Assembly: GCA_000018565.1 (NCBI GenBank)
Contig: CP000875.1
Span: 505,199-569,198, forward strand
Direction of reading: 5' to 3'
DNA length: 64,000 nucleotides
DNA from: Herpetosiphon aurantiacus DSM 785
Lineage (GTDB): Bacteria; Chloroflexota; Chloroflexia; Chloroflexales; Herpetosiphonaceae
Made by a program: the position numbers and the translations under genes. Position 1 is the stretch's first letter; each line of letters opens with the position of its first letter. A model generated the notes under the pieces. That model was not told the origin of the DNA, searched no databases, and was given only the letters and a program-made list of their open reading frames with translations. This document shows positions 4,538 through 57,568 of the stretch, piece by piece.

Positions 4538-7516
4538 GATACTAAAGCGCACAATGTTGGCAGTTGAGTTATTGACTGAATCGAAGCGCAAGACATGCTC
4601 GCCGGCACTCAGATCGGTCAACGGAATCGTGACTTTGGCATAGCCATTGTCATATTCGGTATTTGCGTCGCTAACCCGGAAAATTTCCTCACCATCAAGG
4701 CTAAGCTTGACGTAATCTTGAATTCCCCGACCGTTATGCGCGTAAATCGAGAGGTAGAATTCCAGCGTTGCATCGCCTGCGGTTGTCGTGAAGGTTTGTT
4801 GGGCAAAGGCTGTTTCGGTCGTGCCTGAGCGTGCGCCAAAGCGCAACCAACTTGTGCCAGTCCGTGGTGCGCCAGCACAACCAGGCAATGAACACAATGG
4901 CGGCGAAACATCGCTAAATGAGTTTGAGAAGGCTTGCCAATTGGTGCCAAGCTCGAAGCCACCATTAATCAGGCTTTGGCCAGCTGGCTCAACCTCGATA
5001 TTAAATACTTGACTGGCTGTCAGGTTGCCGCTATCGCGCACAGTTACGGTAATCGGGTAGGTGCCAACTGCGCTGCTACAGGCACAATTCACGTTAGCCT
5101 TCAAGATCCCAGCTTGGTTGCTGATGCTAACGTTCATGCCTGTTGGTGCGCCAGCGGTACTGACTGTCAACGCACCCGCCAAATCAAGATCATCCGAGGC
5201 AGTGCCAATGGTCGCGCTGGTTTGCTTGCCTTGTTGCACCAATACGTCGCTGCTAAGGAACAAACTTGGCGCGGCTGGTGCGGCTGGGCCATTACAGGTG
5301 TAAATTTCAAAGTCGTCGATCGACCAGGTAACTGAGCGATTTGGCGTTGGGGTATCGCCAAGCGCGACCTTGAATCGGAAGCGGATCGATTGCCCAGCCA
5401 AGCTGGCTAAGTTCAAGCGGCTGGCGTTATAGCCATTGCTGTTGCCAACATAGGCTTGCTCGCCGCCAAACGCGCCATCTTCGGCGATATTAGTTGGGCC
5501 GTTGAAGCTAAACAAACCAGCAGCTGACTGCCAAGTACTACCATTGTTGGTGCTATATTCCACCACGCCCGCATCGATTGGCGCATAGAAATCATAGGCA
5601 TGGCGGAAGTAGGCAAAGCCATTGGCGGGAACCGTGACACTCGCATTTTGGGTAAAGGCCGATTCTTCAACCGCCTGATTCCACCCATACACACCGTTAT
5701 AGTTGGTTGCTGAGCCACTACCGCTAGTTGCATATGTCCCAACGAGTGGCGCTGGATTGGTAGTCCAAGTTTCGGTGCTGCCACTCAAGGCGCTTGCACT
5801 CCAACGATTATTGGGCAAGGCCTCAAAATCTTCGTTGAAAACGGTCGTTTGGGTTTGGCCAGGGCTACAAGCAGCAATATCAGGGGCTGGCGCGTTGGTT
5901 GGCTGAAGATCCATTTCGGTTGCCAAAATGGTTTTATTGACTTCAACACAATCGGCGGCGGTAATCCCATGGCTGCCTGTCAGGCTGGTACAGGCTTGGC
6001 GCAAGGCCGAAGCAAGGTCGGCATAATCGCTGCCCGAAGTTAACGAGCTAATTTGGGTTTCATAGAATAAATGGGCAGTTTTGGTGATGCCAATTGAGGC
6101 GATGGTTTGGCCGTTGAACGTATCGCCATCGCTTAAAAGATAGGCAGCCTTATTGGCGACACCACTGTTACTGTGCACCCCACCACTATCAAGCAGATTA
6201 GGATCGAGCACATACAATTCGCTCAACATGCGGTCGGGCTGATCACCTTGGGTTGGGTCTTGCATATTGCGAATCCCGCCCAAATCCTCGCCCATAATCC
6301 AGCGGGTAGTTTCGTCATCGTCGGCGCTACCATTGGTTTGATCCATAAATTCGCCGAAGATATCCGACATGGCTTCGTTGATTGCACCTGATTGGAAGTA
6401 GTAGAACAGGTTCGAGGTATATTCGGTTACCCCGTGCGACAATTCGTGGGCAACCACATCGTCGGCAGCAGCAAAGCCTTGGCCATAGGTCATTTGGCGA
6501 CCATTCCAGAAGGCGTTGCCATACGGGCAGCCCGCGCCAGGTGGGCAGTGCTTGACCAGTGAGATCAAGTTCATGCCGTTGTTGTCGATGCTGTTACGGC
6601 CAAAGAACAAGTTGAAGAAGTCGTAGGTATCACCCGAATAATCGTAAGCGGCATCGATATCAGCATCGTTGCTAGCGGCTGAGCCTTCGGTGCGCACATA
6701 TTCGCTTGGTTGATCACAGTTGTTATTGGGATTATCGTCGTTATCGACCACGTTGTTATCGTTACAAACGAAGCGATTTTTAGCAAAGCCAATTTGATTG
6801 AAGGCTAAGCTAATTTCGCCTGACTGGGCGTTAACGAACACATATTCGCGAATCGGGTTGCTGCTGGTTGATTCAACCGTAACAAACCAAACCAGGCTGC
6901 TTTTTTGTAAGCCTGTGCCACCCAACAAAGCTGGGTTATAAATTGCTAATTCGCTTTTGCTCACGTTCAACGCTGCCAAATTGACATCGTATTTGGTGGC
7001 AACATAGGTTTGGGCGGTATTAATCGCCTTGGCTTGGTCAATTTTGGGGTTGGTGTTTAAATTGAGATTTGGCAACACTTCGCCGTTGATGCTCAGTAAT
7101 TCACCAGCCTGATTGACTTGAACTTGCAATTCGCCAGCAATGACTGGCACGCCTTGGTAGCGCTGTTTATAACGCACAACCTGGCGACCATCTTGGGTGG
7201 TGCTAGTTTTGGCAACGGTGGCATCGCTGGCTTGAGCTAAGCCGAACAAATTGCCATATTCAGCCAAATAGGCATTGGCAATGTTGAGCGTATCAGCGCG
7301 ATTCAAGCCTACTGGTTGATCGAGGGTTGTGCCAGCGGCTGCGCCAATCCAGCGCACATAGCCAGTTTGGCTGTGGCGAGCAACATTGGCTCCTTGGCTG
7401 AGCAAGCGATTGATGGGCGAATTGGTGGTGGGCGTTTGGGCATTGCTCCGGCTTAACGGCAGCATGCTCACAACAATTAATACTGCTAGCAAACGCAGCA
7501 TTCGCATCGAACGCAT
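4463..7516 (-). CDS. Secreted M4 (thermolysin-family) zinc metalloprotease with a long C-terminal extension
   Basis: HExxH in VVAHELSHGV, then GAINEAMSDIFGE (the third Zn ligand region). Signal peptide MRSMRMLRLLAVLIVVSMLPLSRSNAQ. RBS aaggaaag before the ATG at 7516 (the 7654 start is rejected). Confidence 0.85.
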   Translation of the reverse strand: MRSMRMLRLLAVLIVVSMLPLSRSNAQTPTTNSPINRLLSQGANVARHSQTGYVRWIGAAAGTTLDQPVGLNRADTLNIANAYLAEYGNLFGLAQASDATVAKTSTTQDGRQVVRYKQRYQGVPVIAGELQVQVNQAGELLSINGEVLPNLNLNTNPKIDQAKAINTAQTYVATKYDVNLAALNVSKSELAIYNPALLGGTGLQKSSLVWFVTVESTSSNPIREYVFVNAQSGEISLAFNQIGFAKNRFVCNDNNVVDNDDNPNNNCDQPSEYVRTEGSAASNDADIDAAYDYSGDTYDFFNLFFGRNSIDNNGMNLISLVKHCPPGAGCPYGNAFWNGRQMTYGQGFAAADDVVAHELSHGVTEYTSNLFYYFQSGAINEAMSDIFGEFMDQTNGSADDDETTRWIMGEDLGGIRNMQDPTQGDQPDRMLSELYVLDPNLLDSGGVHSNSGVANKAAYLLSDGDTFNGQTIASIGITKTAHLFYETQISSLTSGSDYADLASALRQACTSLTGSHGITAADCVEVNKTILATEMDLQPTNAPAPDIAACSPGQTQTTVFNEDFEALPNNRWSASALSGSTETWTTNPAPLVGTYATSGSGSATNYNGVYGWNQAVEESAFTQNASVTVPANGFAYFRHAYDFYAPIDAGVVEYSTNNGSTWQSAAGLFSFNGPTNIAEDGAFGGEQAYVGNSNGYNASRLNLASLAGQSIRFRFKVALGDTPTPNRSVTWSIDDFEIYTCNGPAAPAAPSLFLSSDVLVQQGKQTSATIGTASDDLDLAGALTVSTAGAPTGMNVSISNQAGILKANVNCACSSAVGTYPITVTVRDSGNLTASQVFNIEVEPAGQSLINGGFELGTNWQAFSNSFSDVSPPLCSLPGCAGAPRTGTSWLRFGARSGTTETAFAQQTFTTTAGDATLEFYLSIYAHNGRGIQDYVKLSLDGEEIFRVSDANTEYDNGYAKVTIPLTDLSAGEHVLRFDSVNNSTANIVRFSIDDISFVTETNQCRGSNLYLPMITK

Positions 7517-7735
7517 AAATCTTTCCTTACACACTAAACGAATAACGCTCAGCATCACGCTATAAGGAAGAGTTGCCAGACCCCTCCCGATGCTGCCTAA
7601 TCCTCGCTCACCAGAGTTTCTCTCCGACCCGCGTTGCCAACCTCCCAAAAGCACTAGATGATCATATCAGCAATAGCGTTTGGCGATTATAGCGCATTCT
7701 GGCCAAAATGTGCATAGATCTTAAGATCGAGTTAT

Positions 7736-13583: not shown

Positions 13584-13755
13584 TGATCCTCACAACTTCA
13601 AGATAGTTCTTTAGTACGGATCACGGAGTAGTACTAGTGCTATCCTCGATTAGCTGCGTTATACTATAGCCCATACTATTTAACACTTTTTAGCCTGATT
13701 CTTAGAACAATAAAGCCTGTTTGTAATGGTTTATCGTATGAACAACGGCCAGCGC

Positions 13756-13859
13756 TCCCTCACCCCCAGCCCCCCCTCTCCCGTACGCGAGGCGAGGGGG
13801 AACCGCTCCAGCAGTGCTCCCCTCGCCCGCCTCCGTGGGAGAGGGGCTGGGGGTGAGGG
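13756..13859. repeat. G-rich palindromic intergenic element (family copy 1)
   Basis: ccctcacccccagccccc...gcgaggcgagggg / cccctcgcccgcc...gggagaggggctgggggtgaggg. The two halves are reverse complements of each other. Confidence 0.8.
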
Positions 13860-13941
13860 AACGGAAACATGGTTGCCAACCCAATGAACCATTACACCTA
13901 TTGGCTAGCTTTGTACAACCTCTTCCAACGGAGGTACTGGC

Positions 13942-14817
13942 ATGCGTCGTGTTTGGTGGGGTGTGGCTGGTTTAGCTCTCATCGGAATGATCACAGTTTT
14001 GATTTGGTGGCTAGCAAAACCGCTTGAAACAACCTTGGAACGTGCCCAACGCACAGGCATGATCCGGATTGGCTATGCCCCCGAAGCGCCTTTCTCGTAT
14101 CGCGATGCTACTGGCACTGTGGTTGGCGAAGAGGCAGTGGTGATTACTTGGGTGATGCAGCGCCTAGGAGTTTCTCAGCTGGAATGGGTGCAAACCGAAT
14201 GGGCCGATTTAATTCCTGGCTTACAAGCTGGGCGTTTTGACTTGATTGCCAGTGGAATGTTTATTACCTGTGAGCGAGCCGAACTCCTTGCGTTTAGCCA
14301 ACCAACCTTTGCCCTCAGTCCAGCTATGCTCGTCGCTAAAACTAACCCATTGGGCATTCAGAGTTTTGCCGATTTTCAGCGGCCAGATCGGCGTTTGGCG
14401 GTGATGCGTGGTGCACGTGAGGCCGAAATTGCCCAAGCCCTGGGGATTGCGCCAGAACAATTATTATTTGTGCCCGATGTGCAAACAGGCTTGGCGGCAG
14501 TGCTGGCAGGCCGTGCCGATGCCTTAGCCTTGACCGATATCAGCATTGATTTGTTGGTATTACAAGCGCCAGATCAAGTTGAACGAGCCATGCCGTTTGT
14601 GCCACCAATTATTGATGGAAATTTAAGTATTGGCTATGGAGCCTTTGCGATGCGTCATAAGGATGCACATTTGCGCACAGCAATTGATCAACAGTTGATT
14701 GGATTTATTGGCAGTGACGAACATTATGGCTTAATTGCGCCGTTTGGGTTTTCGCGCGAGCAATTGCCCAATCGTTCAACCGCCAGTCTGCTCCAAGGTT
14801 GTGAGAATGGCTCATGA
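13942..14817 (+). CDS. Membrane-anchored periplasmic substrate-binding domain protein (family 3 SBP-like), probably a sensor partner
   Basis: N-terminal TM segment, then an SBP-like domain. ATGA overlap with the downstream histidine kinase. Confidence 0.6.
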   Translation: MRRVWWGVAGLALIGMITVLIWWLAKPLETTLERAQRTGMIRIGYAPEAPFSYRDATGTVVGEEAVVITWVMQRLGVSQLEWVQTEWADLIPGLQAGRFDLIASGMFITCERAELLAFSQPTFALSPAMLVAKTNPLGIQSFADFQRPDRRLAVMRGAREAEIAQALGIAPEQLLFVPDVQTGLAAVLAGRADALALTDISIDLLVLQAPDQVERAMPFVPPIIDGNLSIGYGAFAMRHKDAHLRTAIDQQLIGFIGSDEHYGLIAPFGFSREQLPNRSTASLLQGCENGS

Positions 14818-16955
14818 AGCGTTTTGCTTGGTTGCGGCGCAAAGAATTACGCCCATTAATCGCTTTATTGAGTGTGGCTTTAGTTTCGATTGCCCTGTTG
14901 CAATGGAATTATTACCAAATGCGCTCGATGATTCAATCGCAAATCACGGCGTTTAATGGGATGACTCAAGCCCGTTTGAATATGAAACGTGGCTATTTGA
15001 TTGCTGAGCAGGTATTAAATGGCAACCAAACCCTGCTGCCCCAAGATGCAATTGCCTATCTTGATCAGGCGATTTTGGCGGTTGATGATTGGCAGCAAGG
15101 TAAAAATCCCGTTGTAGTCTTTGATCAATTGTTGCCGCCAGATCCACCAACGCAGCAAGCGCTCACTGACTATCGCCAGCATTTGGTCAGCTTTCGAGCC
15201 TTATTATTGCAACATCTCAATCGCCCACAAGAGCAAGCCCAAACCACGATTGATCGCCGAATTGCCTTCTCAGAGTTGGAATCTGAAGCTGAGCAGTTGG
15301 AAAATCGTTTATACCTTGATTTGGAATTATCAATTAAACGGCAGGCCGAGCGCTATTCGTTGATGTTGGTTGGCTGGCTGATTTTCTTGGTGATTATTGC
15401 GGGAGTTGTCTATCGTTTGTTGGGTTTGCAGCGCTTGGCGGTGGCTCAATTGGCCGCCAGCGAAAAACAATTTCGAGCGCAATATCGTGGCATTCCAATT
15501 CCAACCTATACATGGCGTTGTATTGACGACGATTTTATTCTCGAAGGTTTTAACGATGCAGCGATGATTATTACCCAAGGAGCAATTACCAAATTTGTCA
15601 ATCAATCAGCTAGAATTGTCTATCGCAATGAGCCAGAGATTTTACACCATTTTGAGCGTTGTCAACGTGAAAAAATAACACTTCATCAAGAAATTCGCTA
15701 TGAGTTTAAATTAATCAATCAAGTTAAAGATTTGTATGTGAGCTATGTGTTTATCGAACCAGATTTTATTATGGTGCATACCGAAGATCGAACTGATCGC
15801 AATCAGTTGCAAATGCAATTAATTCGTGCCCAGAAAATGGAAAGTATTGGGCGCTTGGCTGGTGGGGTAGCTCACGATTTCAATAATTTGTTAACTGCAA
15901 TTAGCGGTTATACAACCTTGGCGATTGATAGTGCTCAGCAAGGCTTTCCGGTGGTCGAAGAATTAACTGAAATTCAACATGCCACTGATCGAGCAGCAAT
16001 GCTTACCAGTCAATTATTAACCTTTGCACGTAAGCAGCAAATCCAACCAAAAATTGTCAATATCAACGATTTAATTATGTCGATGGAGAAATTGATTAGA
16101 CGAGTTTTACCAGAATCAATTCAATGGCGAACTGTACTTAATGTTAATATTGATTTAGTTTTGGCTGATATCGGCCAGATTGAGCAAGTATTATTGAATT
16201 TAGTAGTCAATGCGCGTGATGCTATGCCTCAGGGTGGAAATTTGCTGGTTGAAACAAATAATGTTGCAGTTGATGCAAATTATGCACGAACTCATATTGA
16301 TGTACCAATTGGCAATTATGTTTTATTCGCGGTGAGCGATACCGGCATCGGCATGACCCAAGAAGTCCAGAGTCGGGCATTTGAGCCATTTTTTACCACT
16401 AAAAGCGATCACGAAGGTACTGGTTTGGGTTTAGCCACCTGTTATGGCATTATCAAGCAACATGGCGGCCATATTGGTTTGTATAGCGAAGTTAATCATG
16501 GCACGACGATTAAAATTTATTTGCCACGTTCAGAGCAAGCTCAACTCGATGATGCTCCAAGCCTCATCCAAAACTTACCTCGTGGCACGGAAACGATTTT
16601 GGTGAGCGAGGATGAGCCGCAGGTACGGGCGGTTTTGGTGCGGATGCTCCAAGGCTTGGGCTATAGCGTGCTCGAAGCACTGCATGGCTCCGAGGCCTTG
16701 GCCTTGCTCCAAGCCCAGGCGCTTGGCACAATTCAGCTCTTAATTACTGATATGGTTATGCCACAAATGGGTGGTTTTGAGCTGAGCCAACGGGTTGCTG
16801 AGCTTGATCCTCAGCTCAAAATTTTGTTTATTTCGGGCTACTCCGAGCATAGTTTGGCGCAACATCAGCAATTAGCCCAACAGCCTTTGTTGCTGAGCAA
16901 GCCATTTTCACTGGCTACTTTGGCGCAAACAGTCCGCAAGGTGCTGGATGATTAG
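14814..16955 (+). CDS. Hybrid sensor histidine kinase / response regulator
   Basis: TM segments. HisKA H-box AHDFNNLLTAISGY. HATPase N/G boxes (NARDAM, DTGIGM, GTGLGL). C-terminal receiver (LLITDMVMP). Confidence 0.9.
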   Translation: MKRFAWLRRKELRPLIALLSVALVSIALLQWNYYQMRSMIQSQITAFNGMTQARLNMKRGYLIAEQVLNGNQTLLPQDAIAYLDQAILAVDDWQQGKNPVVVFDQLLPPDPPTQQALTDYRQHLVSFRALLLQHLNRPQEQAQTTIDRRIAFSELESEAEQLENRLYLDLELSIKRQAERYSLMLVGWLIFLVIIAGVVYRLLGLQRLAVAQLAASEKQFRAQYRGIPIPTYTWRCIDDDFILEGFNDAAMIITQGAITKFVNQSARIVYRNEPEILHHFERCQREKITLHQEIRYEFKLINQVKDLYVSYVFIEPDFIMVHTEDRTDRNQLQMQLIRAQKMESIGRLAGGVAHDFNNLLTAISGYTTLAIDSAQQGFPVVEELTEIQHATDRAAMLTSQLLTFARKQQIQPKIVNINDLIMSMEKLIRRVLPESIQWRTVLNVNIDLVLADIGQIEQVLLNLVVNARDAMPQGGNLLVETNNVAVDANYARTHIDVPIGNYVLFAVSDTGIGMTQEVQSRAFEPFFTTKSDHEGTGLGLATCYGIIKQHGGHIGLYSEVNHGTTIKIYLPRSEQAQLDDAPSLIQNLPRGTETILVSEDEPQVRAVLVRMLQGLGYSVLEALHGSEALALLQAQALGTIQLLITDMVMPQMGGFELSQRVAELDPQLKILFISGYSEHSLAQHQQLAQQPLLLSKPFSLATLAQTVRKVLDD

Positions 16956-27617: not shown

Positions 27618-28733
27618 ATGGTTGGACGTGAACTTTATCGGTTGTTGCAATGCCCAACGTGTAACTCACGGGATTTGGCGGTCTATGCTGAGCATGTCTT
27701 ATGTGCTGGCTGCCGCAATCAATATCCCATTCACAAGGGCTATATTGATTTAATGCCGCGACAAACCGAATTTGATTATATTTCAAAATATGTTTCCGAA
27801 GAAGAAAGCATGGGCGAGGAGCTTGATTATCGTGAGATGGCTCCCCCATTATTGGCAGCAGGCGTGCGTCATCGCCAAATTCGGCGCATGCTCGAGCTTA
27901 AGCCAACCGATATTGTGTTTGATAATGCCTGTGGCAATGGTCGTTTTGGCTTATGGAACGCCGATGCCGTTGGCTTGCTGGTTGGCAGCGATCCAGCGGT
28001 GCTGTTCGCCGACCAAGCTTTAGCCGAGATGGAATTGGCGCAAGCTGATTCGCGGCGTTTGCCATTTGTCGATGGCGCGTTCGATAAATCGCTCTCGGTC
28101 GATGTGCTCGAACACTTTCCCCGCGATGTCATCCACGATTATTTGGTCGAGACGGCGCGGGTCTTGAAAGTTGGCGGACGGGTGGCGATCTTCTCGAATA
28201 CCCGTGAAATGTCGCCAATTCAGCCAATTATCAATATCTCCAAGCGCTTGGGCAAATTCTTTGTCAAGCAAGGGGTCTACGATTTCGAGCGCGAAGCACG
28301 ACGTAAATCCGACCACATCAAAGATCTCAAAACCTGGGACGATGTTGAGGCGGCTTTGGTAGAAGCAGGCTTGAAGCCTGTCAAAGTCGTATTTTGGAAT
28401 AGCGTGTTTACCTCGTTTGTTGAGCATGTGCTGATGAAACTGGGTGAATCGTTGATTGCCAAGCGTAAAACTGCCAAAGCTGCCAGCGCAACCGTGTTGA
28501 CCGACGAGGCCGTGAACGCTTCGGCTGGTGCACAGCGCGAAATTGTCGCTCGCCGCGCGATGCGTCGCCACCTTACCCCAACTTCGCCAATTTACTGGGC
28601 ACTCTATACCATCACGTTACTGATGGAATTAGATTTGTGGTTGTTTGGCTGGATGCGCACTGGCCCCTATTTTGTGCTGGCTGAGAAGGTCGAAGGCCGT
28701 TATGTGCCAGCGCCCTTACCCGCCGAAGAGTAA
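27618..28733 (+). CDS. Class I SAM-dependent methyltransferase with an N-terminal Trm112-like zinc ribbon and a C-terminal membrane segment
   Basis: CPTCNS...CAGC ribbon. SAM motif VFDNACGNGRFG. C-terminal hydrophobic helix. Confidence 0.75.
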   Translation: MVGRELYRLLQCPTCNSRDLAVYAEHVLCAGCRNQYPIHKGYIDLMPRQTEFDYISKYVSEEESMGEELDYREMAPPLLAAGVRHRQIRRMLELKPTDIVFDNACGNGRFGLWNADAVGLLVGSDPAVLFADQALAEMELAQADSRRLPFVDGAFDKSLSVDVLEHFPRDVIHDYLVETARVLKVGGRVAIFSNTREMSPIQPIINISKRLGKFFVKQGVYDFEREARRKSDHIKDLKTWDDVEAALVEAGLKPVKVVFWNSVFTSFVEHVLMKLGESLIAKRKTAKAASATVLTDEAVNASAGAQREIVARRAMRRHLTPTSPIYWALYTITLLMELDLWLFGWMRTGPYFVLAEKVEGRYVPAPLPAEE

Positions 28734-29256
28734 AATTCAGCCCTGCTGCTCAGTCGAGTAGCAGGGCTTTTTTATTTTGTGCCTTTATTTATCTTCTTGT
28801 AGGTATGGGTATTTCAGGTTTACAAATGAACACAACCATGTATTTTAGAATATATAAGTATGTATTTTATGTGAATTGATTTATTAAATTTAGATCTTAT
28901 AAATTATCAAAGCTTTACTATTATGCCTAAAATGTATATTGCATAATAAAGAGATATATGCTCTCATCTGTTTTGAGAGATATTCAACCGTGCTTCTTCT
29001 CTATCCTATCTCACAATTAATTCTAAATATACAGTGATATAGCTATCCTAGCATATGTTGCTTTACATTAGATCTAAGAACTCTCTATTTTGTATTTAAT
29101 TATTTTTAATGATTAAATATTTTTCTTCGTTAGATTATATATTTTATAACTCGATTTAAATAATAATTTCATTAAATATCATATCTTTTTAATACGTGTA
29201 ATATTAAAAAGAGTGATGCTATGATTTTTCGCCATTCTTGTAAAGGAGAGATTTCC
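28734..29256. other. About 520-bp AT-rich (roughly 25% GC) non-coding region opening a low-GC island
   Basis: Composition very unlike the flanking DNA (about 50% GC). No ORF longer than 60 aa. Confidence 0.8.
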
Positions 29257-29937
29257 ATGTTCAAAAAACTCAGCCTGATCGCATCAGTGGTACTTATGCT
29301 CATTGTGACACAATTTACGCCAGTCGAAGCACAAGAGCAATCACGCCAAATGGTTTTGGTGGCGGTTGATGTAAGTGCTATGTGTAGCGAATCGATTGAT
29401 TCCGCCAAGAATCATCCATGCGAAAAGGGAAGCAGTATCAGTGTCTATAGCATGCCTCTAGAGGACGCACAAAAACAAGGATACGGCGAATATGTCTTTA
29501 TTACCGGGGATACTACGTTGGATCGGCTTGCTTCTAAACAACTTGCTGATACACTCCATTTACAACTTACCAATGATAAACAAAAAGCTCCTGCTAATAC
29601 CCAAGCTTGTGGATCATATTATAAGAGTATTTCGCGCTCATTTACCATGGGCGGAGGGGTCTACAAACTTGATACATCGGTTCAGTACAAAGTTAATCCT
29701 ACTTGCCAAGTATCAGAAGAAACATATCGTGTAAAAACCTCAAAGACCCACTATGAATTACTTACATGGTCGATCAATTTCCCCAATGTCAATGTTTATA
29801 ATTCAATCCAATCTCAGCCAGGTTTAACCTGGACATCATATGCCTATAATGTTTGGATGAACTCAGGATTCCAACTTTCTGCCGAAACGTATTTTCCTGG
29901 GGAAACACACTGGGAATATTATACGTTGTACCAATAG
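29257..29937 (+). CDS. Secreted hypothetical protein (signal peptide MFKKLSLIASVVLMLIVTQFTPVEA), low-GC gene
   Basis: RBS aaggagag. About 41% GC. Cys-containing secreted protein with no recognised domain. Confidence 0.6.
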   Translation: MFKKLSLIASVVLMLIVTQFTPVEAQEQSRQMVLVAVDVSAMCSESIDSAKNHPCEKGSSISVYSMPLEDAQKQGYGEYVFITGDTTLDRLASKQLADTLHLQLTNDKQKAPANTQACGSYYKSISRSFTMGGGVYKLDTSVQYKVNPTCQVSEETYRVKTSKTHYELLTWSINFPNVNVYNSIQSQPGLTWTSYAYNVWMNSGFQLSAETYFPGETHWEYYTLYQ

Positions 29938-30034
29938 ATCCAAGAATATAAATTACCACTTGTAAGTAATGTCGATCATCCCTCGTGGTGAACACATCAA
30001 TCAAAGCCCGAGGGATGATCAAAGAAAGTAGGTT

Positions 30035-30601
30035 ATGCAACGTTTGATCGTAGCTATGCTGCTGTTGGTGATCCTCATCGGTTGTCGCCAACAACAAACA
30101 ACCCAGCCGCTTACTCCTTCGCCAATCAATAGTATTGATTCACGGAAGATTGAGGCAATCATTCTTAAGCCATTTCAGAATGAGCAGATTCAGAATCTTC
30201 AAATGTATCCAGTGGCAGGGCTTAACGAGGGAATGCTGTTTGTGTATCAGCTCGATTCAGCAAGAGGCAAAGCAATTGGTTTGTTGACTGGAGTTGAAAC
30301 TTTAGGCGAATTCTCAATCCGTAGCCAGTCCCTTGATATTCTTGGGCCTCAGAAGCCGTATGGTTTTTATCTGAGCAATGATGGTGGACAACCAAATTAC
30401 ATTGGCTATGGCTATATTCAACATCCAGAAACGATTAAGCAACTGCGAATTATATTGAGCGATGGTAACAGCTTGGTTGTTACTGGGAATACGATTACTG
30501 GCTTGGTCATGCCCAAACATAATCCGCCAATTCGACTAGAAGTTGTGGGAATAGATGGCACGATCATTGAACAGAATCCAATCACGCTTCCCACTCCTTG
30601 A
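30035..30601 (+). CDS. Lipoprotein (signal peptide with lipobox LIGC)
   Basis: MQRLIVAMLLLVILIGC. About 45% GC. Confidence 0.6.
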   Translation: MQRLIVAMLLLVILIGCRQQQTTQPLTPSPINSIDSRKIEAIILKPFQNEQIQNLQMYPVAGLNEGMLFVYQLDSARGKAIGLLTGVETLGEFSIRSQSLDILGPQKPYGFYLSNDGGQPNYIGYGYIQHPETIKQLRIILSDGNSLVVTGNTITGLVMPKHNPPIRLEVVGIDGTIIEQNPITLPTP

Positions 30602-30606
30602 AATGT

Positions 30607-31629
30607 TTAGCCACCCCAAACCTCGTTTTCGTGGCGCACGATCATGCTAATTGGCAAAATGGTATTTTCGCTGCTAGGAGTTTTGCCTTCGATCAGCTCG
30701 ATCAACACATTGGCGGCGGTTGCACCAAGATCGTACATTGGTTGGTGCAACGAGGTCATGCTGGGGTTGAGGCTGGCGGCAGTTGGCACATCATCAAAAC
30801 AGACCACGGTTATATCATCAGGCACGCGCAGCCCTTGGGTATGCAAGGTTTGTAATACGCCTGTGGCCATCACGGCGCTGCTGACAAACAGGGCGCTTGG
30901 CCGTGGTTGCAAGGCTAGTAATTGCTCAATTGCCGCTTGGCCGCCTTGTTCAGTCTCATTTCCAGTGGCAATCAATGCTGGGTGAATTGGCAAACCTGCC
31001 TCGCGATAGGCCTGTTGATAGCCCTCAATCTGATCGTGGGTGGCCAGTGCATGCAACGAGCCAACGATCATGCCAACCGATTGATGGCCAAGTTTCAGCA
31101 GATGATGCACTGCTTGGTAGCTACCCGCAAAATGGTCAATATCGACGCTGACAATATGATGCAGCAAGGGATGTTTGCCCACCAGCACCATCGGCACGCG
31201 GTCGGCGATCAGTTGCGGTAACAATGGATCATTGATTGTATTGGGAATCACGATTCGGCCATCGACGCTGCGACCATTCAGTAATTTAGTCGCTGGATCA
31301 TCGGCCCGATTGGCGCTATCCAACGAGACCATTAATACATAGCCCTTGGCATTACAAGCCTCGGTCATGCCCTGAAGCAGGTGCGAAAAGGTCGGGTTAC
31401 GAAAGATTGTGGCAGTAGTGCGCGAAATAAAGACCGCAATTACTTTGGGGCGTTGGCCTGCCAAGGTTCGCGCTGCTGCATGCGGGGTGTAATGATGCTC
31501 CTGCATCACGGCGAGCACTCGTTCGCGCACTTCGGCCCGTACATGCGGCTGATTGTTCAGCACCCGCGAAACCGTTGCAATCGAGACATGCGCCAATTCT
31601 GCAATTTGTTCAATCGTCAATGATGCCAT
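30607..31629 (-). CDS. LacI-family transcriptional regulator
   Basis: N-terminal HTH TIEQIAELAHVSIATVSRVLNN and a periplasmic-binding-protein-fold effector domain. Start set at MASLTIEQ. Confidence 0.9.
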   Translation of the reverse strand: MASLTIEQIAELAHVSIATVSRVLNNQPHVRAEVRERVLAVMQEHHYTPHAAARTLAGQRPKVIAVFISRTTATIFRNPTFSHLLQGMTEACNAKGYVLMVSLDSANRADDPATKLLNGRSVDGRIVIPNTINDPLLPQLIADRVPMVLVGKHPLLHHIVSVDIDHFAGSYQAVHHLLKLGHQSVGMIVGSLHALATHDQIEGYQQAYREAGLPIHPALIATGNETEQGGQAAIEQLLALQPRPSALFVSSAVMATGVLQTLHTQGLRVPDDITVVCFDDVPTAASLNPSMTSLHQPMYDLGATAANVLIELIEGKTPSSENTILPISMIVRHENEVWGG

Positions 31630-31640
31630 AACGCGACCTA

Positions 31641-32996
31641 CTAATTCCCTTCTGGACCAAGTGGCTGATAGGTTTGTTGGCGCAGTTTGTTCAGCAACCA
31701 AAAAGCTGCGCCACAGAGCAATAATTCTGAAATAGCTTCGGCGGCCCAAATGCCATTTAGGCCAAATAGCTGTGAGCCAAGCAATAAAATGGGCAGTTTA
31801 ATGCCAATAATGCTGCCAACTAGCAGCAATAGGGCTTGTTTGGCCCAGCCTGCCGCTTGTAAGGCCGCCGCGCTGACCAGCGAAATTCCGGTTAATGGAT
31901 AGGCCAGTGCTAACAAACGCAAGGCAGTTTGGCCTTCGGCAATCAAGGCTTGGTCATGCGAGAGCAGCGAAATCAAGCCACTAGGAATGATCAAGCATAT
32001 GCTGCTAATCAGTAGGCCATAGCCAACCGCTGCTCGCAGCGAAAGCTTAATTGTTTGCCATACGCGCTGAAGATTGCGCTGCCCAAGATTATAGCCGACA
32101 ATTGGCTGCATGCCTTGAATAATTCCAGTTTGCGGTGTCATCAAGCCGCTGTACAAGCTGCCAACAATCGCAAAAACGCTCAAAGCACTAGTGCCGCCAA
32201 GCGTTCGCAACAGATTATTGGTCACAATTGCCATAATGCTAGCGCTGAGATTTTTAATCAGCGAGGGCGAGCCAATCAGCAAAATTTCGCGCATAATCGC
32301 CCAATCGGGCTTAAAGTAGCTCAGTCGTATGTTATATGAGCGTTGTTTGCGAAAAAAGAAAAAATAGATGCTCATGCCAGCTGAAGCAGCCTGCCCAAGC
32401 ACCGTCGCAATGGCTGCACCTGTCATACCCAGCGGAAAAACAATCACCAACAACCACCAAAATCCAATCGTCAGGCTAACCGGAATGATCCAGATCGCGG
32501 TTGAAAAGCCGGTATTGCCGTCGGCGCGGATAATTGCCGAGTAGCCTGTGCTAGTAATTGCGCCCAAAAAGATGATGCGACCATAGTCGATGGCGTAGGG
32601 CGCAATGCTTTCGGTCGCGCCCAACAAATAGACAATTGGCTCAATTGCCAACGTGCCAATCACGCTGATAATGAGTGCCGCCGCCCAAAAAATAATGAAG
32701 GTATTGGCAACAACTCGCGCTGCTCGATCGGGCTGATGTGCTCCCAAGGCGCGTGAAACAACTGAAGCTCCGCCAGCACCAACCGTAGTTGAAACTGCTC
32801 CCAAGGCCAAGAGCACCGGCGCGATAATTGCAGCACCCGCCGCCGCTAAACCATTAATTCCAATCGAAAGTACATAGGTATTGGTGATGCTATAAATTGT
32901 ATAGACCAACAGCGAGATGGTGGTTTGCGACGACATCGCTAATAGCAACTTGCCGATGGGAGCGGTTCCTAATTTTTCAATGCTAGCTGTTGCCAT
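31641..32996 (-). CDS. MATE family efflux transporter
   Basis: 12-TM protein of the MATE family, by length and composition. Confidence 0.8.
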   Translation of the reverse strand: MATASIEKLGTAPIGKLLLAMSSQTTISLLVYTIYSITNTYVLSIGINGLAAAGAAIIAPVLLALGAVSTTVGAGGASVVSRALGAHQPDRAARVVANTFIIFWAAALIISVIGTLAIEPIVYLLGATESIAPYAIDYGRIIFLGAITSTGYSAIIRADGNTGFSTAIWIIPVSLTIGFWWLLVIVFPLGMTGAAIATVLGQAASAGMSIYFFFFRKQRSYNIRLSYFKPDWAIMREILLIGSPSLIKNLSASIMAIVTNNLLRTLGGTSALSVFAIVGSLYSGLMTPQTGIIQGMQPIVGYNLGQRNLQRVWQTIKLSLRAAVGYGLLISSICLIIPSGLISLLSHDQALIAEGQTALRLLALAYPLTGISLVSAAALQAAGWAKQALLLLVGSIIGIKLPILLLGSQLFGLNGIWAAEAISELLLCGAAFWLLNKLRQQTYQPLGPEGN

Positions 32997-34197: not shown

Positions 34198-34305
34198 AAG
34201 TATACCATAGCAGTTAATGCGATGCAATAGACTTATTGCAATGATTTTATTAACGTGGCATGGCTGCTGCTTTAGCCTAAATTGCCCAAAATAGTTGAGG
34301 TTGAT

Positions 34306-35307
34306 ATGAATTTTCGTGAATATCGGATTGCTGCGCCGAATGTGCGCTCGTTATGTTGGCATGACCAGAGCTTGGTCGATTGGGTAGCTGGTGGCACGCG
34401 CTATCAGTTGGATGGCCCGATTAAACGTTCATCAACGGTCTATCCGTTTGGCTTTGATGCGGCGGTGCAATCGGCTTCAGGTGAGGTCGTGGTAATTTAT
34501 CAGCGCTTAGGAACCAAGGGTTTAGTGCTTAACAATGGCCAAATTGTGCGCGAAATTAACCGCAGCTACTACTACGCCGACAGCTATGAGTATCCCATCG
34601 CGATTCTTCAACATGCCGATTTGAATGAAGTATTGGTGCATTGCCCCGAAAAATACAATCAACTTGAGCTTGAAGATGTTGTCACAAATCGACGACTGAA
34701 TGAAGCCGAACGCAAGCCAGTCGAGATTTTTCATTCGCGATTAAGTGTTAGCCCCAAAGGCAAATGGTTGGTGAGCGCTGGTTGGCAGTGGCAACCGACC
34801 CATACCGTGGCAATTTACAACGTTGATGAGATCTGGGCACAACCGCAAATCCTCGATACTGAAGGTTTTTGTCCGTCAATTCAAGTCGATATTAGCTCGG
34901 TCAGCTTTTTAGATGAACAAACCCTGCTGATTATCACCGATGAATTTGCTAACCTGAGTGCCGATTTGGTTGATACGCTGGTACAACGACGCGGCGCACA
35001 TAGCATCGGCTACTACGATCTGCTCAATCGCCAATTTCGCGCCACCGTCGAGGCCGAGGAGATTGTGGGCACAGCTATGGCGCTGAGCGAACGCTATGTG
35101 GTTGGTTTTTACGATCATCCAAAATTGTTCGATTGTACCACGGGCAAGGTTGTGCAGCGCTGGCCCGATTTAGCCACAGGCCGTCAAACCCATAGCATGA
35201 TCGGCAGGCTTGATCAATCCATCCCGCCAATCGCCTTTGATCAAGCTAACCAACGTTTTGCGGTGGCCGATGCCAAGGGCATTACGGTGATTGAATTGAG
35301 TTTATAG
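34306..35307 (+). CDS. Hypothetical protein, paralog 1 of a tandem pair
   Basis: Shares long conserved blocks with 35422..36429 (REYRI, VRSLCW, AAVQS.SG..VIYQRLGT, FYDHPKLFDCTTGK, IAFDQANQRFAVADAKGITVIEL). Confidence 0.7.
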   Translation: MNFREYRIAAPNVRSLCWHDQSLVDWVAGGTRYQLDGPIKRSSTVYPFGFDAAVQSASGEVVVIYQRLGTKGLVLNNGQIVREINRSYYYADSYEYPIAILQHADLNEVLVHCPEKYNQLELEDVVTNRRLNEAERKPVEIFHSRLSVSPKGKWLVSAGWQWQPTHTVAIYNVDEIWAQPQILDTEGFCPSIQVDISSVSFLDEQTLLIITDEFANLSADLVDTLVQRRGAHSIGYYDLLNRQFRATVEAEEIVGTAMALSERYVVGFYDHPKLFDCTTGKVVQRWPDLATGRQTHSMIGRLDQSIPPIAFDQANQRFAVADAKGITVIELSL

Positions 35308-44512: not shown

Positions 44513-44621
44513 TAGATTTAGCTGATTAAATGGGGTTAAATACGCTTCAAGCTATCGGCTAGACAATGGTACAATTTGTGATAATACAGCGCTGTTAACA
44601 ATAGTATAGATGCCCTCACCC

Positions 44622-44723
44622 CCTAGCCCCCTAGCCCGCCGAGCGAGCGAGGGGGAACCACTAAGTGAAACGCCCCTCGCCCGCCGCAGTGGGAGAGGGG
44701 TTGGGGTGAGGGCAGGCACTACA
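44622..44723. repeat. G-rich palindromic element (copy 5)
   Basis: gccctcaccccctagccccctagcccgccgagcgagcgagggggaac ... cccctcgcccgccgcagtgggagaggggttggggtgaggg. Confidence 0.8.
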
Positions 44724-54262: not shown

Positions 54263-54573
54263 ACCATCCTCCTAAACCATAGCCTCAGCTGTATCAATAA
54301 CAGCTAATATGCTATAGATTGATGGTAGTTTTTTCGGGTGCAATACACAATAGCCGATCATGGCTAGATTTACGCAGGATATGAGGATTATCAAGCTGAA
54401 ATTTAAATCTGACCTCTGATTCACTAGAACCTGACCCCTCGTACCTCTGTGTCTTTGGCTTAAAATCCAAATCTTCGCCCCCAACCCTTGAATGATCTTC
54501 AAATAGTGAAAAAAAAAGTGTTGTGTGTATCTAAATCTAGTGAAGCATATTCATCCTAGATTTGGAGGCTTTT

Positions 54574-55398
54574 ATGCCGGTTGTTGGAACTGCTCCCGTA
54601 AAGCCGTGCCCTCAATGTCAATTTCGTAATAAGTCTAGCGCAACATGTTGCCAAAAGTGTGGGCAAAATTTGGCTGCTGCACAAGCGCCTCAATCATATC
54701 AGCCAATCGCTCGCCCTACGGTTATCCCATCCGTTAATACAAGCATGGCAACTCCAACAACCAAGCCAATTGCCCCAACATCAATCCAGCTTTCGCCAAA
54801 CTCGGCTAGGAGTATGCTTCAGCCAAATCGCCAGCAATTATTGGCACAGCTGCAAATGTTTGCTTATGGCCTGATTGGCTTAGGAGCAGTCATTCTGGTT
54901 GGGTTAATCTTTGGTCTCTTTGTTAAAGGAGGCCTGAGCGGCGATTTAGGGGGTATTTTAGGTGGTGGGGTTGAGATTGGAGGCAGTGCTATCCATCTTT
55001 TGCTGTTATTACTTGCAACTTTATTTGAGGCGGGATTATCCAATGGAGGGATTATCGCCTTCGTTGTAATTATTATCATCCTGCTATTGCCTGCATATGC
55101 AATTTTTGCTATTACAACTGGCTCAAAAATCGCTAAGGCAATTATATTAAATCAAATGCCCTATTCTATAAAAAATCTTCAAATATTTAGCGGAATAATG
55201 ATCGGATTTTTTGGATTGATCTATGCATTAACTAATATTCAATTTAAGATGAATAGTAATGGGTTAGGAGGCTTTGGCGCGGAGGCTGGAATTGGTTTAG
55301 GATGGGGATTTACATTAAGTCTTTTCATAATGTTAGGAATATTTATTGGCTGTATTTGGTATAAAAATATAGCATTAAAACTTTTAGTTAACCCATAA
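54574..55398 (+). CDS. Zinc-ribbon (CPQC...CQKC) N-terminal domain fused to a Gly-rich 4-TM membrane domain; first gene of the vWA-PP2C-kinase module
   Basis: RBS ggagg. Double CxxC motifs in the first 30 aa. Four hydrophobic helices. Confidence 0.7.
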   Translation: MPVVGTAPVKPCPQCQFRNKSSATCCQKCGQNLAAAQAPQSYQPIARPTVIPSVNTSMATPTTKPIAPTSIQLSPNSARSMLQPNRQQLLAQLQMFAYGLIGLGAVILVGLIFGLFVKGGLSGDLGGILGGGVEIGGSAIHLLLLLLATLFEAGLSNGGIIAFVVIIIILLLPAYAIFAITTGSKIAKAIILNQMPYSIKNLQIFSGIMIGFFGLIYALTNIQFKMNSNGLGGFGAEAGIGLGWGFTLSLFIMLGIFIGCIWYKNIALKLLVNP

Positions 55399-55408
55399 AG
55401 GAGCAATT

Positions 55409-56077: not shown

Positions 56078-56133
56078 AATTGGTTGAGGTTAGTCGGCCA
56101 AAACTGACTAACCTCTTTTTTAAGGATGATCTG

Positions 56134-57549: not shown

Positions 57550-57568
57550 GCATGATATAAGGATTTTA

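What the first reader, a model, noticed from the sequence alone, without database searches (positions are those of the whole stretch)
28734..30606. Low-GC island: about 520 bp of 25% GC non-coding DNA plus two secreted/lipoprotein genes
The composition drops sharply from about 50% to 25-45% GC between the methyltransferase gene and the LacI gene. The island encodes a Cys-containing secreted protein (29257..29937) and a lipoprotein (30035..30601), neither with a recognisable domain. This pattern fits horizontally acquired or xenogeneically silenced DNA. The AT-rich leader is a likely strong or nucleoid-protein-bound promoter region. No integrase or tRNA flank is visible.
Basis: seen in the sequence. 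Interest (0 to 1): 0.55.

Follow-up and report, generated by a model that had tools for sequence, protein, structure and literature searches.

The report
Acquired AT-rich two-gene islet, Herpetosiphon
A 1.8-kb AT-rich piece of accessory DNA, carrying its own long regulatory leader plus genes for a secreted protein and a lipoprotein of unknown function, sits in a spot of the Herpetosiphon aurantiacus chromosome where related strains carry nothing or something else; it is a real but fairly ordinary case of gene turnover.

Summary
Window 28770-29220 is 23% GC, the lowest stretch in a 49% GC window, and the two genes behind it are 41% and 44% GC. The window matches Herpetosiphon aurantiacus.

The segment from 28774 to about 30600 lies between the convergent methyltransferase and LacI genes.
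- It is absent at this site from the three closest relatives found and from four named sister species.
- H. gulosus keeps only the lipoprotein gene, which carries a premature stop.
- H. llansteffanensis holds a different AT-rich insert here, an OLD/GajA-like ATPase gene.
- H. giganteus and NSE202 hold a small GC-rich palindromic repeat here.

So this is an accessory cassette in a gene-turnover hot spot. It has no integrase, tRNA or terminal repeats.

P1 is a Sec-secreted, four-cysteine protein. It belongs to a sparse family of about 22 sequence clusters with no Pfam model. Its predicted C-terminal domain is a generic Ig-like sandwich. P2 is a lipoprotein found in only three loci, each time downstream of a P1 relative. 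Both genes are under purifying selection.

Horizontal acquisition is supported. Xenogeneic silencing and a strong promoter are untested. Function is unknown; an extracytoplasmic protein pair is the best guess.

The parts
28739..28773 (+). Native intrinsic terminator of the methyltransferase gene (13-bp stem, 4-nt loop, T-run). It marks the left edge of the variable spot and is not part of the insert.
   Evidence: Terminator scan. Homology with all relatives runs up to 28772-28773 and then breaks. In H. gulosus the 30-nt hairpin is the exact reverse complement.
28774..29256 (+). AT-rich leader of the cassette: 483 bp at 24% GC. It holds no ORF longer than 32 aa and is the presumed promoter, operator and 5' UTR region of P1.
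   Evidence: Absent from empty sites. The upstream gap is also long and AT-rich before the P1 relatives in L001 (811 bp, 32% GC) and L092 (555 bp, 34% GC).
28929..29018 (+). Block conserved with the L001 leader. It contains TTGCATAA-N-TATATG and lies about 315 bp upstream of the P1 start codon in both loci. It is a candidate promoter or operator.
   Evidence: Local alignment score 34, against 23.3 +/- 2.6 (maximum 31) in 100 shuffles. Also seen in the global alignment. The promoter assignment is inference.
29184..29212 (+). Perfect 11-bp inverted repeat (TCTTTTTAATA / TATTAAAAAGA), 45 nt upstream of the P1 start. L001 has a hairpin or palindrome at the same position with compensating changes.
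   Evidence: (I10). Only two sequences are available, so this is weak evidence. RNA hairpin and palindromic operator cannot be told apart.
29243..29248 (+). Ribosome-binding site AAGGAG for P1.
   Evidence: Sequence. L001 has GGAGG at the same place.
29257..29937 (+). P1: a 226-aa Sec-secreted protein with two predicted domains and four conserved cysteines (C43, C55, C118, C150). It is ABX03108.1 / WP_012188016.1.
   Evidence: dN/dS is 0.205 against the L001 copy.
29974..30020 (+). Intercistronic hairpin with a 12-bp perfect stem. It is conserved in H. gulosus and L001 and is not followed by a T-run. Its start is the breakpoint of the H. gulosus replacement.
   Evidence: I8; z = -3.87.
30035..30601 (+). 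P2: a 188-aa lipoprotein (lipobox LIG|C). It is ABX03109.1 / WP_012188017.1.
   Evidence: dN/dS is 0.164 against L001. In H. gulosus it carries CAG>TAG at codon 72.
30593..30606 (.). Right junction, uncertain by about 15 bp. Sequence alignable with the empty site of L101-L103 resumes here, so the last P2 codons and the stop may be native DNA. The LacI stop codon is at 30607-30609 on the minus strand.

Best explanation
Window 28774 to about 30600 is an accessory gene cassette of about 1.82 kb. It lies in a gene-turnover hot spot between two convergent core genes of Herpetosiphon aurantiacus, a class I methyltransferase and a LacI-family regulator.

Shown:
- The cassette is present or absent among very close relatives. 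The same spot carries different cargo in other species.
- The cassette, or its P1 gene alone, occurs elsewhere in unrelated neighbourhoods.
- It has no integrase, transposase, tRNA or terminal repeats.
- Both genes are under purifying selection.

Inferred:
- It entered, and is exchanged, by recombination at or next to the terminator hairpin of the methyltransferase gene. Most likely this is homologous recombination in the flanking core genes after DNA uptake.
- It brings its own expression unit. This consists of an AT-rich leader of about 480 bp with a conserved promoter or operator block about 315 bp upstream and a conserved hairpin or palindrome 45 nt upstream. Then come P1, a conserved intercistronic hairpin that probably sets the P1:P2 ratio, and P2.
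- P1 is exported by Sec and stabilised by two disulfides. It has a small alpha/beta N-domain and an Ig-like beta-sandwich C-domain.
- P2 is lipid-anchored on the outer face of the cytoplasmic membrane.
- The two proteins act together outside the cytoplasm, with a secreted binding or effector protein and a cell-bound partner (receptor, tether or protector).

The biochemical activity is unknown.
For: Composition:
- The leader is 23-26% GC in a 49% GC window. P1 is 41% and P2 44% GC, with GC3 of 0.37 and 0.41 against 0.49 +/- 0.065.

Site occupancy in relatives:
- Empty, with 54-60 bp between the terminator and the LacI stop, in H. geysericola and in L101-L103. L101-L103 are the closest relatives, at 93-97% nt identity per gene.
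- A 126-bp GC-rich palindromic repeat in H. giganteus and NSE202.
- A 1.9-kb insert at 31% GC encoding an OLD/GajA-like ATPase in H. llansteffanensis.
- In H. gulosus, a 334-aa paralogue of window gene 34282-35307, followed by the hairpin and a P2 copy with a stop at codon 72.

Other contexts:
- The only close homologues of P1 and P2 (72% and 59% aa identity) are adjacent on contig L001. There they sit in a low-GC patch near NAGPA-domain genes, an ISL3 transposase and a DnaB-like helicase.

Protein families:
- A full HMMER scan of 1.84 billion representatives found 22 matches to the P1 profile. They are about 220-280 aa, with a signal peptide and four conserved Cys, and have no Pfam domain.
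- The named members come from Chloroflexi bacteria AL-W and AL-N1.
- A same-strand lipoprotein gene follows the P1 relative in 5 of 8 distinct loci. Three of these are P2 homologues; L091 is 28% identical at E = 4e-27.

Selection and timing:
- dN/dS is 0.205 for P1 and 0.164 for P2 against L001.
- P2 against H. gulosus gives dS = 0.26, the same as the flanking genes at 0.26-0.35.

Structure:
- The AF2 model built from 22 sequences has pLDDT 82.4 and pTM 0.77.

Conserved non-coding elements.

Mobility signatures are absent: no tRNA and no terminal repeats.

Hot spots that lack mobile-element genes and show recombination at flanking core genes are a described general pattern (PMC5635113).
Against: - No direct evidence of transfer direction or donor exists. 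The organism of L001 is unknown.
- The gene tree of the flanks is ((window, L101-103), H. gulosus). Presence in the window and in H. gulosus therefore needs a gain plus a loss or replacement, or a second transfer. A single clean gain does not fit.
- The P1-P2 partnership rests on adjacency in three loci and on the decay of P2 in H. gulosus. That decay is one nonsense codon in a draft assembly and could be a sequencing error.
- In L092 and L096 the P1 relative has no lipoprotein neighbour.
- The second lipoprotein family (L095, L098) is not significantly related to P2.
- No expression data exist.
- No fold or sequence match suggests an activity.
Confidence: 0.65

Rival explanations
1. Secreted toxin or bacteriolytic effector (P1) with a cognate immunity lipoprotein (P2). 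This would be a competition or predation module of the kind that varies between strains of 'wolf-pack' predators.
For: - P1 is a secreted protein followed by a small lipoprotein gene in 5 of 8 loci.
- Distribution is patchy and strain-specific, and the genes sit in a hot spot that elsewhere holds a defence-type gene.
- In H. gulosus the loss of P1 goes with a stop codon in P2, as expected when immunity is no longer needed.
- L091 has two further lipoprotein genes plus a MarR and ABC-2 exporter set downstream.
- Herpetosiphon genomes differ considerably in their secreted hydrolase complements (PMC6210107).
Against: - No toxin, hydrolase or pore-forming domain was found by Pfam, NCBIfam, PADLOC, PHROGs, a PDB profile search or fold search.
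- Two loci lack a lipoprotein partner.
- No conserved catalytic-looking residues stand out beyond the cysteines, D38 and G58.
Confidence: 0.2
2. An ancient native region of the genus that was lost repeatedly. Its low GC would reflect function (regulatory DNA, secreted-protein composition), not foreign origin.
For: - P2 has diverged between H. aurantiacus and H. gulosus by the same dS as the flanking genes (0.26 against 0.26-0.35). The cassette has therefore been in place since before these lineages split.
- The leader has not ameliorated in that time, which suggests its AT-richness is selected.
- P1-family genes are somewhat GC-poorer than their surroundings in most loci.
Against: - It is absent from seven of the nine Herpetosiphon lineages examined, including the three closest.
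- The empty site in L101-L103 retains the ancestral GGTTAA/GATTAA that the filled site lacks.
- Searches of 5.8 billion and 1.84 billion proteins found no further close copy.
- The close homologues are in unrelated contexts.
- The same spot holds other AT-rich or repeat inserts in other species.
Confidence: 0.1
3. Xenogeneically silenced cargo. The AT-rich leader would be coated by a nucleoid-associated protein and the genes kept off except under special conditions.
For: - The AT-richness is extreme (23% GC against 49%) over about 450 bp directly upstream of acquired genes.
- A second AT-rich insert occupies the same spot in H. llansteffanensis.
- AT-rich palindromes in the leader could be protein-binding sites.
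Against: - No H-NS, Lsr2, MvaT or Rok-type silencer is documented for Chloroflexota, to my knowledge. The literature search found nothing relevant.
- AA/TT dinucleotides show no helical phasing.
- Purifying selection on both genes shows they are used.
- Neither binding nor expression can be tested here.
Confidence: 0.15
4. Remnant of a prophage or defence island. P2 would be a superinfection-exclusion type lipoprotein and P1 a phage-derived secreted or structural protein.
For: - One P1 relative (L097) lies next to a P22-type antirepressor domain gene and HTH genes. Another (L098) lies next to a weak Csf3 hit and an HNH gene.
- L001 has a DnaB-like helicase with strong PHROG hits 9 kb away.
- The hot spot holds an OLD/GajA-like gene in H. 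llansteffanensis.
Against: - tblastn of P1 found nothing in 50,697 phage genomes or 72,556 plasmids.
- PHROG and PADLOC gave no significant hits for P1 or P2.
- BFVD fold search found nothing at E <= 0.001.
- No phage genes flank the cassette in the window.
Confidence: 0.07

Closest known systems
Chromosomal hot spots of horizontal gene transfer that lack mobile-element genes (Oliveira, Touchon, Cury and Rocha 2017, PMC5635113)
   Same: - The spot is a single interval between conserved core genes.
- It carries different accessory content in different lineages: empty, a repeat element, an OLD-like ATPase, a paralogous gene, or the P1-P2 cassette.
- Gene turnover is rapid, and no integrase, transposase or tRNA is present.
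- Exchange is presumably by recombination in the flanks.
   Different: - A formal hot-spot call needs a pan-genome and a statistical threshold. Only nine lineages were compared here.
- Recombination in the flanks was not demonstrated. Per-gene identities show no obvious mosaic.
- The breakpoints coincide with hairpins, namely the terminator and the intercistronic stem. The terminator is inverted in H. gulosus. This hints at hairpin-associated illegitimate events in addition to homologous exchange.
AT-rich acquired islands under H-NS/Lsr2-type xenogeneic silencing (enterobacteria, actinobacteria; from my own knowledge)
   Same: A sharp AT-rich drop at acquired genes, strongest in the upstream regulatory DNA.
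   Different: No silencer is known or was shown in Herpetosiphon, and there are no binding or expression data. The AT-rich tract is short (under 0.5 kb), carries elements conserved with its homologue, and shows no A-tract phasing.
Secreted bacteriocin or effector with an immunity lipoprotein (for example the lantibiotic immunity lipoproteins NisI and SpaI; from my own knowledge)
   Same: The gene order is a secreted product followed by a small lipoprotein of about 160-250 aa. Distribution is strain-specific, and the lipoprotein decays when the upstream gene is lost.
   Different: No sequence or fold similarity to any bacteriocin, lysin or immunity protein was found. P1 is a 200-aa folded protein and not a peptide. 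No modification or export genes are present.

Membership tests
Horizontally acquired islet in a gene-turnover hot spot | Composition deviates from the host chromosome | tested here: met
   The leader is 0.233-0.264 GC against 0.493 +/- 0.054. P1 has GC3 0.37 and P2 0.41, against 0.488 +/- 0.065.
Horizontally acquired islet in a gene-turnover hot spot | Present or absent among close relatives, with conserved flanking core genes and a recognisable empty site | tested here: met
   Empty sites occur in L101-L103 (93-97% nt identity) and in H. geysericola. The flanks are colinear in seven further lineages.
Horizontally acquired islet in a gene-turnover hot spot | Different cargo at the same spot in different lineages | tested here: met
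   An OLD/GajA-like ATPase at 31% GC in H. llansteffanensis. A GC-rich palindromic repeat in H. giganteus and NSE202. A 334-aa paralogue plus a disrupted P2 in H. gulosus. A rearranged locus with an SPFH/vault-like gene in MAG L032.
Horizontally acquired islet in a gene-turnover hot spot | Homologous cassette in unrelated genomic contexts elsewhere | tested here: met
   L001 (P1 72% and P2 59% aa identity) and L091 (P1-like plus P2-like) have entirely different neighbours.
Classical integrative genomic island or prophage | Integrase or recombinase gene, tRNA or tmRNA target, flanking direct repeats | tested here: not met
   No tRNA in the 64-kb window. No terminal direct or inverted repeats beyond chance 10-mers. 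Neighbouring ORFs are housekeeping or regulatory genes. No hits in phage or plasmid collections.
Xenogeneically silenced DNA | AT-rich relative to the genome | tested here: met
Xenogeneically silenced DNA | Host encodes a silencer that binds the region, and transcription is repressed | not testable with these tools
   No expression or binding data are available. The literature search found nothing for Chloroflexi. The proxy test for curved DNA (AA/TT phasing) was negative.
Sec-secreted protein (P1) and bacterial lipoprotein (P2) | N-terminal signal peptide with an AXA-type site (P1); lipobox [LVI][ASTVI][GAS]C (P2) | tested here: met
   By inspection only, since no predictor was available. P1 reads MFKK-LSLIASVVLMLIVTQF-TPVEA|QE. 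P2 reads MQR-LIVAMLLLVI-LIG|C. Both are conserved in the homologues.
Toxin-immunity or bacteriocin-immunity pair | Recognisable toxin or lytic domain in the secreted partner | tested here: not met
Toxin-immunity or bacteriocin-immunity pair | Conserved adjacency of the effector with a small cognate protector gene | tested here: inconclusive
   A lipoprotein gene lies downstream in 5 of 8 loci, but these belong to two families that are not demonstrably related (hhalign E = 0.025, probability 2%). It is absent in L092 and L096.
Known cis-regulatory RNA (Rfam) in the leader | Match to a covariance model at or above the gathering score | tested here: not met
   Only two sub-threshold chance hits were found: 21 bits against a gathering score of 34, and 17 bits against 84.

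The most novel reading that the evidence does not exclude
P1 and P2 would be the founding pair of a new extracytoplasmic two-protein system of Chloroflexota. P1 would be a disulfide-stabilised secreted effector with an N-terminal domain that has no detectable structural relatives, and P2 a cognate membrane-tethered lipoprotein. The system would move as a self-contained cassette with its own AT-rich, structured leader. It would act in inter-bacterial antagonism, predation or phage exclusion.
Probability: 0.2. Interest if true: 0.5.

Novelty: new member of a known kind. Interest (0 to 1): 0.3.

Why it matters
The case gives a clean, small example of how a filamentous predatory Chloroflexota genome gains and swaps accessory genes without mobile-element machinery. 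One intergenic spot directly after a terminator hairpin shows at least five different states in nine lineages.

It also flags an unannotated family of secreted four-cysteine proteins and a partner lipoprotein. These are candidates for strain-specific surface or antagonism functions in Herpetosiphon, whose predatory secretome is poorly understood.

None of this overturns current understanding. The value is a pointer for annotation and for a simple knockout experiment.

Tried and rejected
- Sequence searches for function. Pfam, NCBIfam, PHROGs and PADLOC on P1 and P2 gave only sub-threshold noise: HA70_C at E = 0.04, GldI signal-peptide similarity, and an Rz-like spanin signal-peptide similarity. 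PDB profile searches gave weak hits only: AcrIIC5 or a phage protein at E = 0.006 over 75 residues for P1, and nothing for P2. I treat these as chance.
- More copies of the cassette. Two JGI metagenome scans found nothing. Phage and plasmid tblastn searches were empty. The profile search for P2 found nothing new.
- The 2652-aa protein P0008. It matched P1 residues 30-74 ten times, but it is made of Big_13/Big_6 Ig repeats. I treated this as motif-level similarity and not as homology.
- Mobile-element signatures. No terminal inverted or direct repeats were found. The 10-mer TATTTTGTGC at the left junction recurs 105 bp upstream, but about two such repeats are expected by chance in 2.2 kb.
- LacI end. 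I first thought the insert had replaced the last LacI codons, because the four distant species end in ...DECC(E/A). The empty-site relatives L101-L103 share the window's ...EVWGG ending, so that difference is lineage divergence and not part of the insert.
- Promoter prediction. Sigma-70-like sites are not enriched. The conserved TTGCAT-N17-T(C/A)(T/C)(C/T)AT arrangement is weak in the window, so the promoter call stays an inference.
- Curvature. AA/TT phasing at 10-11.5 bp is not significant.
- Taxonomy of L001 and L091. Exact-sequence cluster look-ups returned no organism names.
- Link between the two lipoprotein families (P2 type and L095/L098 type). hhalign was not significant.
Full report
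**1. Observation**

The window is 49.35% GC. Its 300-bp windows have mean 0.493, sd 0.054 and minimum 0.23. That minimum lies at 28851, inside the finding. GC falls from 0.53 at 28500-28799 to 0.25-0.26 across 28800-29250. It recovers to only 0.38-0.45 across the two ORFs and returns to 0.53-0.55 after 30600.

The ORFs at 29257-29937 (226 aa) and 30035-30601 (188 aa) exist as described. P1 has a Sec-type signal peptide (MFKK, hydrophobic core, VEA|QE). P2 has a lipobox (LIG|C). Both were judged by inspection.

GC3 is 0.37 for P1 and 0.41 for P2, against 0.488 +/- 0.065 for 50 ORFs of the window. The genes are moderately atypical and the leader is extreme. No Pfam, NCBIfam, PHROG or PADLOC family is reached, and there is no Rfam family. 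The window holds no tRNA.

**2. Source organism**

P1 and P2 are identical to ABX03108.1 and ABX03109.1 of Herpetosiphon aurantiacus DSM 785, on a 6.35-Mb contig. All contigs carrying the identical P1 have the same neighbours.

**3. Presence and absence at the site**

A scan of one genome per species with the methyltransferase brought in the syntenic loci of the relatives. In every Herpetosiphon relative, nucleotide homology with the window runs through the methyltransferase gene and its terminator hairpin up to 28772-28773. It then breaks and resumes at the 3' end of the LacI gene. The content between these points differs by lineage.

| Lineage | Content between the methyltransferase terminator and LacI |
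|---|---|
| H. geysericola | 54 bp |
| L101-L103 (three Logan contigs) | 60 bp |
| H. giganteus, strain NSE202 | Same short spacer plus a 126-bp GC-rich nested palindrome; copies of this repeat family lie elsewhere in the window |
| H. llansteffanensis | 1.9 kb at 31% GC, encoding a 586-aa OLD/GajA/PtuA-like ABC ATPase |
| H. gulosus | A 334-aa gene (paralogue of window 34282-35307, 63% nt), then the cassette from the intercistronic hairpin onward: P2 with one in-frame stop (codon 72, CAG>TAG), a 61-bp duplicate of the LacI 3' end and about 160 bp more |
| MAG L032 | Locus rearranged |

L101-L103 are the closest relatives found. Their per-gene nt identity to the window is 93-97%, against 89-95% for H. 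gulosus and 80-92% for the others. They also share the window's MatE gene.

The foreign segment is therefore 28774 to about 30593-30606, roughly 1.82 kb. 28734-28773 is native terminator.

**4. History**

P2 differs between H. aurantiacus and H. gulosus by dS = 0.26, the same as the flanking genes at 0.26-0.35, with dN/dS = 0.21. The cassette was therefore already at this site when these two lineages split.

Every flanking gene nevertheless places the window closer to the island-free L101-L103 than to H. gulosus. The empty site in L101-L103 also keeps the ancestral GGTTAA/GATTAA that the filled site lacks. At least two events are needed:
- a gain followed by replacement with an empty allele, or
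- two transfers.

This is a presence/absence polymorphism exchanged among close lineages. It is not a single ancient gain, and it is not a native region.

No integrase, transposase, tRNA or terminal repeat is present. Breakpoints coincide with hairpins. The left edge is the terminator, which in H. gulosus is the exact reverse complement of the window's copy. The H. gulosus replacement begins exactly at the intercistronic stem. Recombination in or beside the flanking core genes is the most economical mechanism. It matches the described class of hot spots without mobile-element genes (PMC5635113). This step is inferred and not shown.

**5. The cassette elsewhere**

In 5.8 billion protein clusters the only other close homologues are P0002 (72% to P1) and P0004 (59% to P2). 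They are adjacent on a 63-kb ENA contig, L001. There they sit in a 5-kb low-GC patch beside NAGPA-domain genes, an ISL3 transposase and a DnaB-like helicase. dN/dS against these copies is 0.205 for P1 and 0.164 for P2, so both genes are under purifying selection.

The leaders have diverged almost completely, with two exceptions.
- A block of about 90 bp (window 28929-29018, L001 9681-9765) scores 34 against 23.3 +/- 2.6 in shuffles. It lies about 315 bp upstream of the start codon in both loci.
- A perfect 10-11-bp inverted repeat lies about 45-50 nt upstream of the start, with compensating changes.

The 12-bp intercistronic hairpin is conserved in the window, H. gulosus and L001 (fold z = -3.87). 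It has no T-run, so it is not a canonical terminator. I infer a role in mRNA processing or stability, or in attenuation.

**6. What the proteins are**

A full HMMER scan of 1.84 billion representatives with the P1 profile found 22 proteins at E <= 1e-3. Most are 220-280 aa. They have a signal peptide, invariant D38, C43, C55 and G58, a nearly invariant C118, and a shared motif V-x-V-A-E-D-K-T...C...C-P-P-G-S-V-I...D-Y-V-x-L-T-G-D. None has a Pfam domain. The named members come from Chloroflexi bacteria AL-W and AL-N1. Another locus, L096, has a MurJ most similar to Chloroflexaceae sequences.

With these 22 sequences AlphaFold2 gives pLDDT 82.4 and pTM 0.77; with two sequences it gave 33.8. The model has three parts:
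- an alpha/beta N-domain (about 30-110) ending in a long helix;
- a low-confidence linker;
- a seven-stranded beta-sandwich (about 120-224).

P2 has only two relatives: P0004 and the gene downstream of the P1 relative in L091 (28% identity, E = 4e-27). In L095 and L098/L099 the P1 relative is followed by another lipoprotein family. The two members are 31% identical to each other (E = 7e-15). Their relation to P2 is not significant. L092 and L096 have no such partner.

A downstream lipoprotein is thus frequent (5 of 8 loci) but not universal. Together with the stop codon in the orphaned H. gulosus P2, this suggests but does not prove that the two proteins work together.

**7. Mechanism, with confidence**

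- Shown: an accessory cassette in a variable spot, with two selected genes whose products leave the cytoplasm.
- Inferred with moderate confidence: a self-contained expression unit, made of an AT-rich leader with a distal promoter or operator block and a proximal hairpin or operator, then P1, a hairpin and P2. P1 is secreted and disulfide-bonded, and P2 is tethered to the outer face of the membrane as its partner.
- Speculative: the activity. Effector with immunity is the best specific guess (about 0.2). Surface binding or tethering is the neutral alternative. Phage exclusion is less likely.
- Xenogeneic silencing and a 'strong promoter' remain untested. Promoter-like hexamers are at the chance level and there is no A-tract phasing.

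**8. Comparison and novelty**

As a genomic feature this is a new example of a known kind: an islet in a hot spot without mobile-element genes. It fails the defining features of a classical integrative island. As proteins, P1 defines an unannotated family and P2 is a near-orphan. Their function is open.

Interest is modest at 0.3. A specialist would not be surprised by the islet. The protein pair is a reasonable but unproven lead for strain-specific extracellular biology in a predatory Chloroflexota.

Noticed in passing
window 31641-32996 (minus strand): The MatE-family gene between LacI and the APH/fructosamine-kinase gene is present in the window and in L101-L103. It is absent from H. gulosus, H. 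geysericola and H. llansteffanensis, where LacI and APH are adjacent. It is a second indel next to the islet, and its GC is normal at 0.50.
   Followed up: partly
window about 27596 (between 27481 and 27618): All relatives, including the closest ones (L100-L103 and L011-L014), carry about 675 bp more here, encoding a 188-aa DUF4256 protein. The window lacks it, which indicates a deletion specific to this genome.
   Followed up: partly
window about 13750-13860 and 44615-44720; L011 11165-11308; L013 same site: A family of GC-rich nested palindromic repeats (CCCTCACCCC...CCCCTCTCCCG...GGCGAGGGG / CCCCTCGCCCGC...GGGAGAGGGG...GGGGTGAGGG), resembling REP or MITE elements. Copies lie in two intergenic regions of the window. 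A copy fills the methyltransferase/LacI spot in H. giganteus and NSE202.
   Followed up: partly
L012 11158-13060 (H. llansteffanensis): The same spot holds a 1.9-kb insert at 31% GC with a single 586-aa OLD/GajA/PtuA-like ABC ATPase gene. This is a candidate anti-phage defence gene without an obvious partner.
   Followed up: partly
L100 5567-5601 against window 28739-28768: The methyltransferase terminator hairpin of H. gulosus is the exact reverse complement of the one in H. aurantiacus and the other relatives. This is a flipped quasi-palindrome at the recombination breakpoint. H. gulosus also has three copies of the LacI 3'-end segment (about 6647-6680, 7324-7384 and 7544-7604).
   Followed up: partly
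window 54562-58771: A second low-GC stretch (GC 0.37-0.45, GC3 0.30-0.39) covers four same-strand genes: a hypothetical protein, a VWA-domain protein, a PP2C phosphatase and a Ser/Thr protein kinase. It may be another acquired block.
   Followed up: no
window 15451-16300: A low-GC stretch (0.35-0.37) lies inside the 713-aa hybrid histidine kinase/response regulator gene 14814-16955.
   Followed up: no
L092 about 5506-5625: The leader of the P1 relative in Chloroflexi bacterium AL-W contains eight tandem copies of a 15-bp unit (GCAATGAAGCACGAC), next to a divergently transcribed GerE/LuxR-family regulator gene. L095 also has a GerE-type HTH coding sequence directly upstream of its P1 relative.
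   Followed up: no
P0008 (2652 aa, not in the window): A giant protein made of Big_13/Big_6 Ig-like repeats matches P1 residues 30-74 ten times (E = 1.7e-10). This hints that the first strands of the P1 N-domain resemble part of an Ig-like repeat.
   Followed up: no
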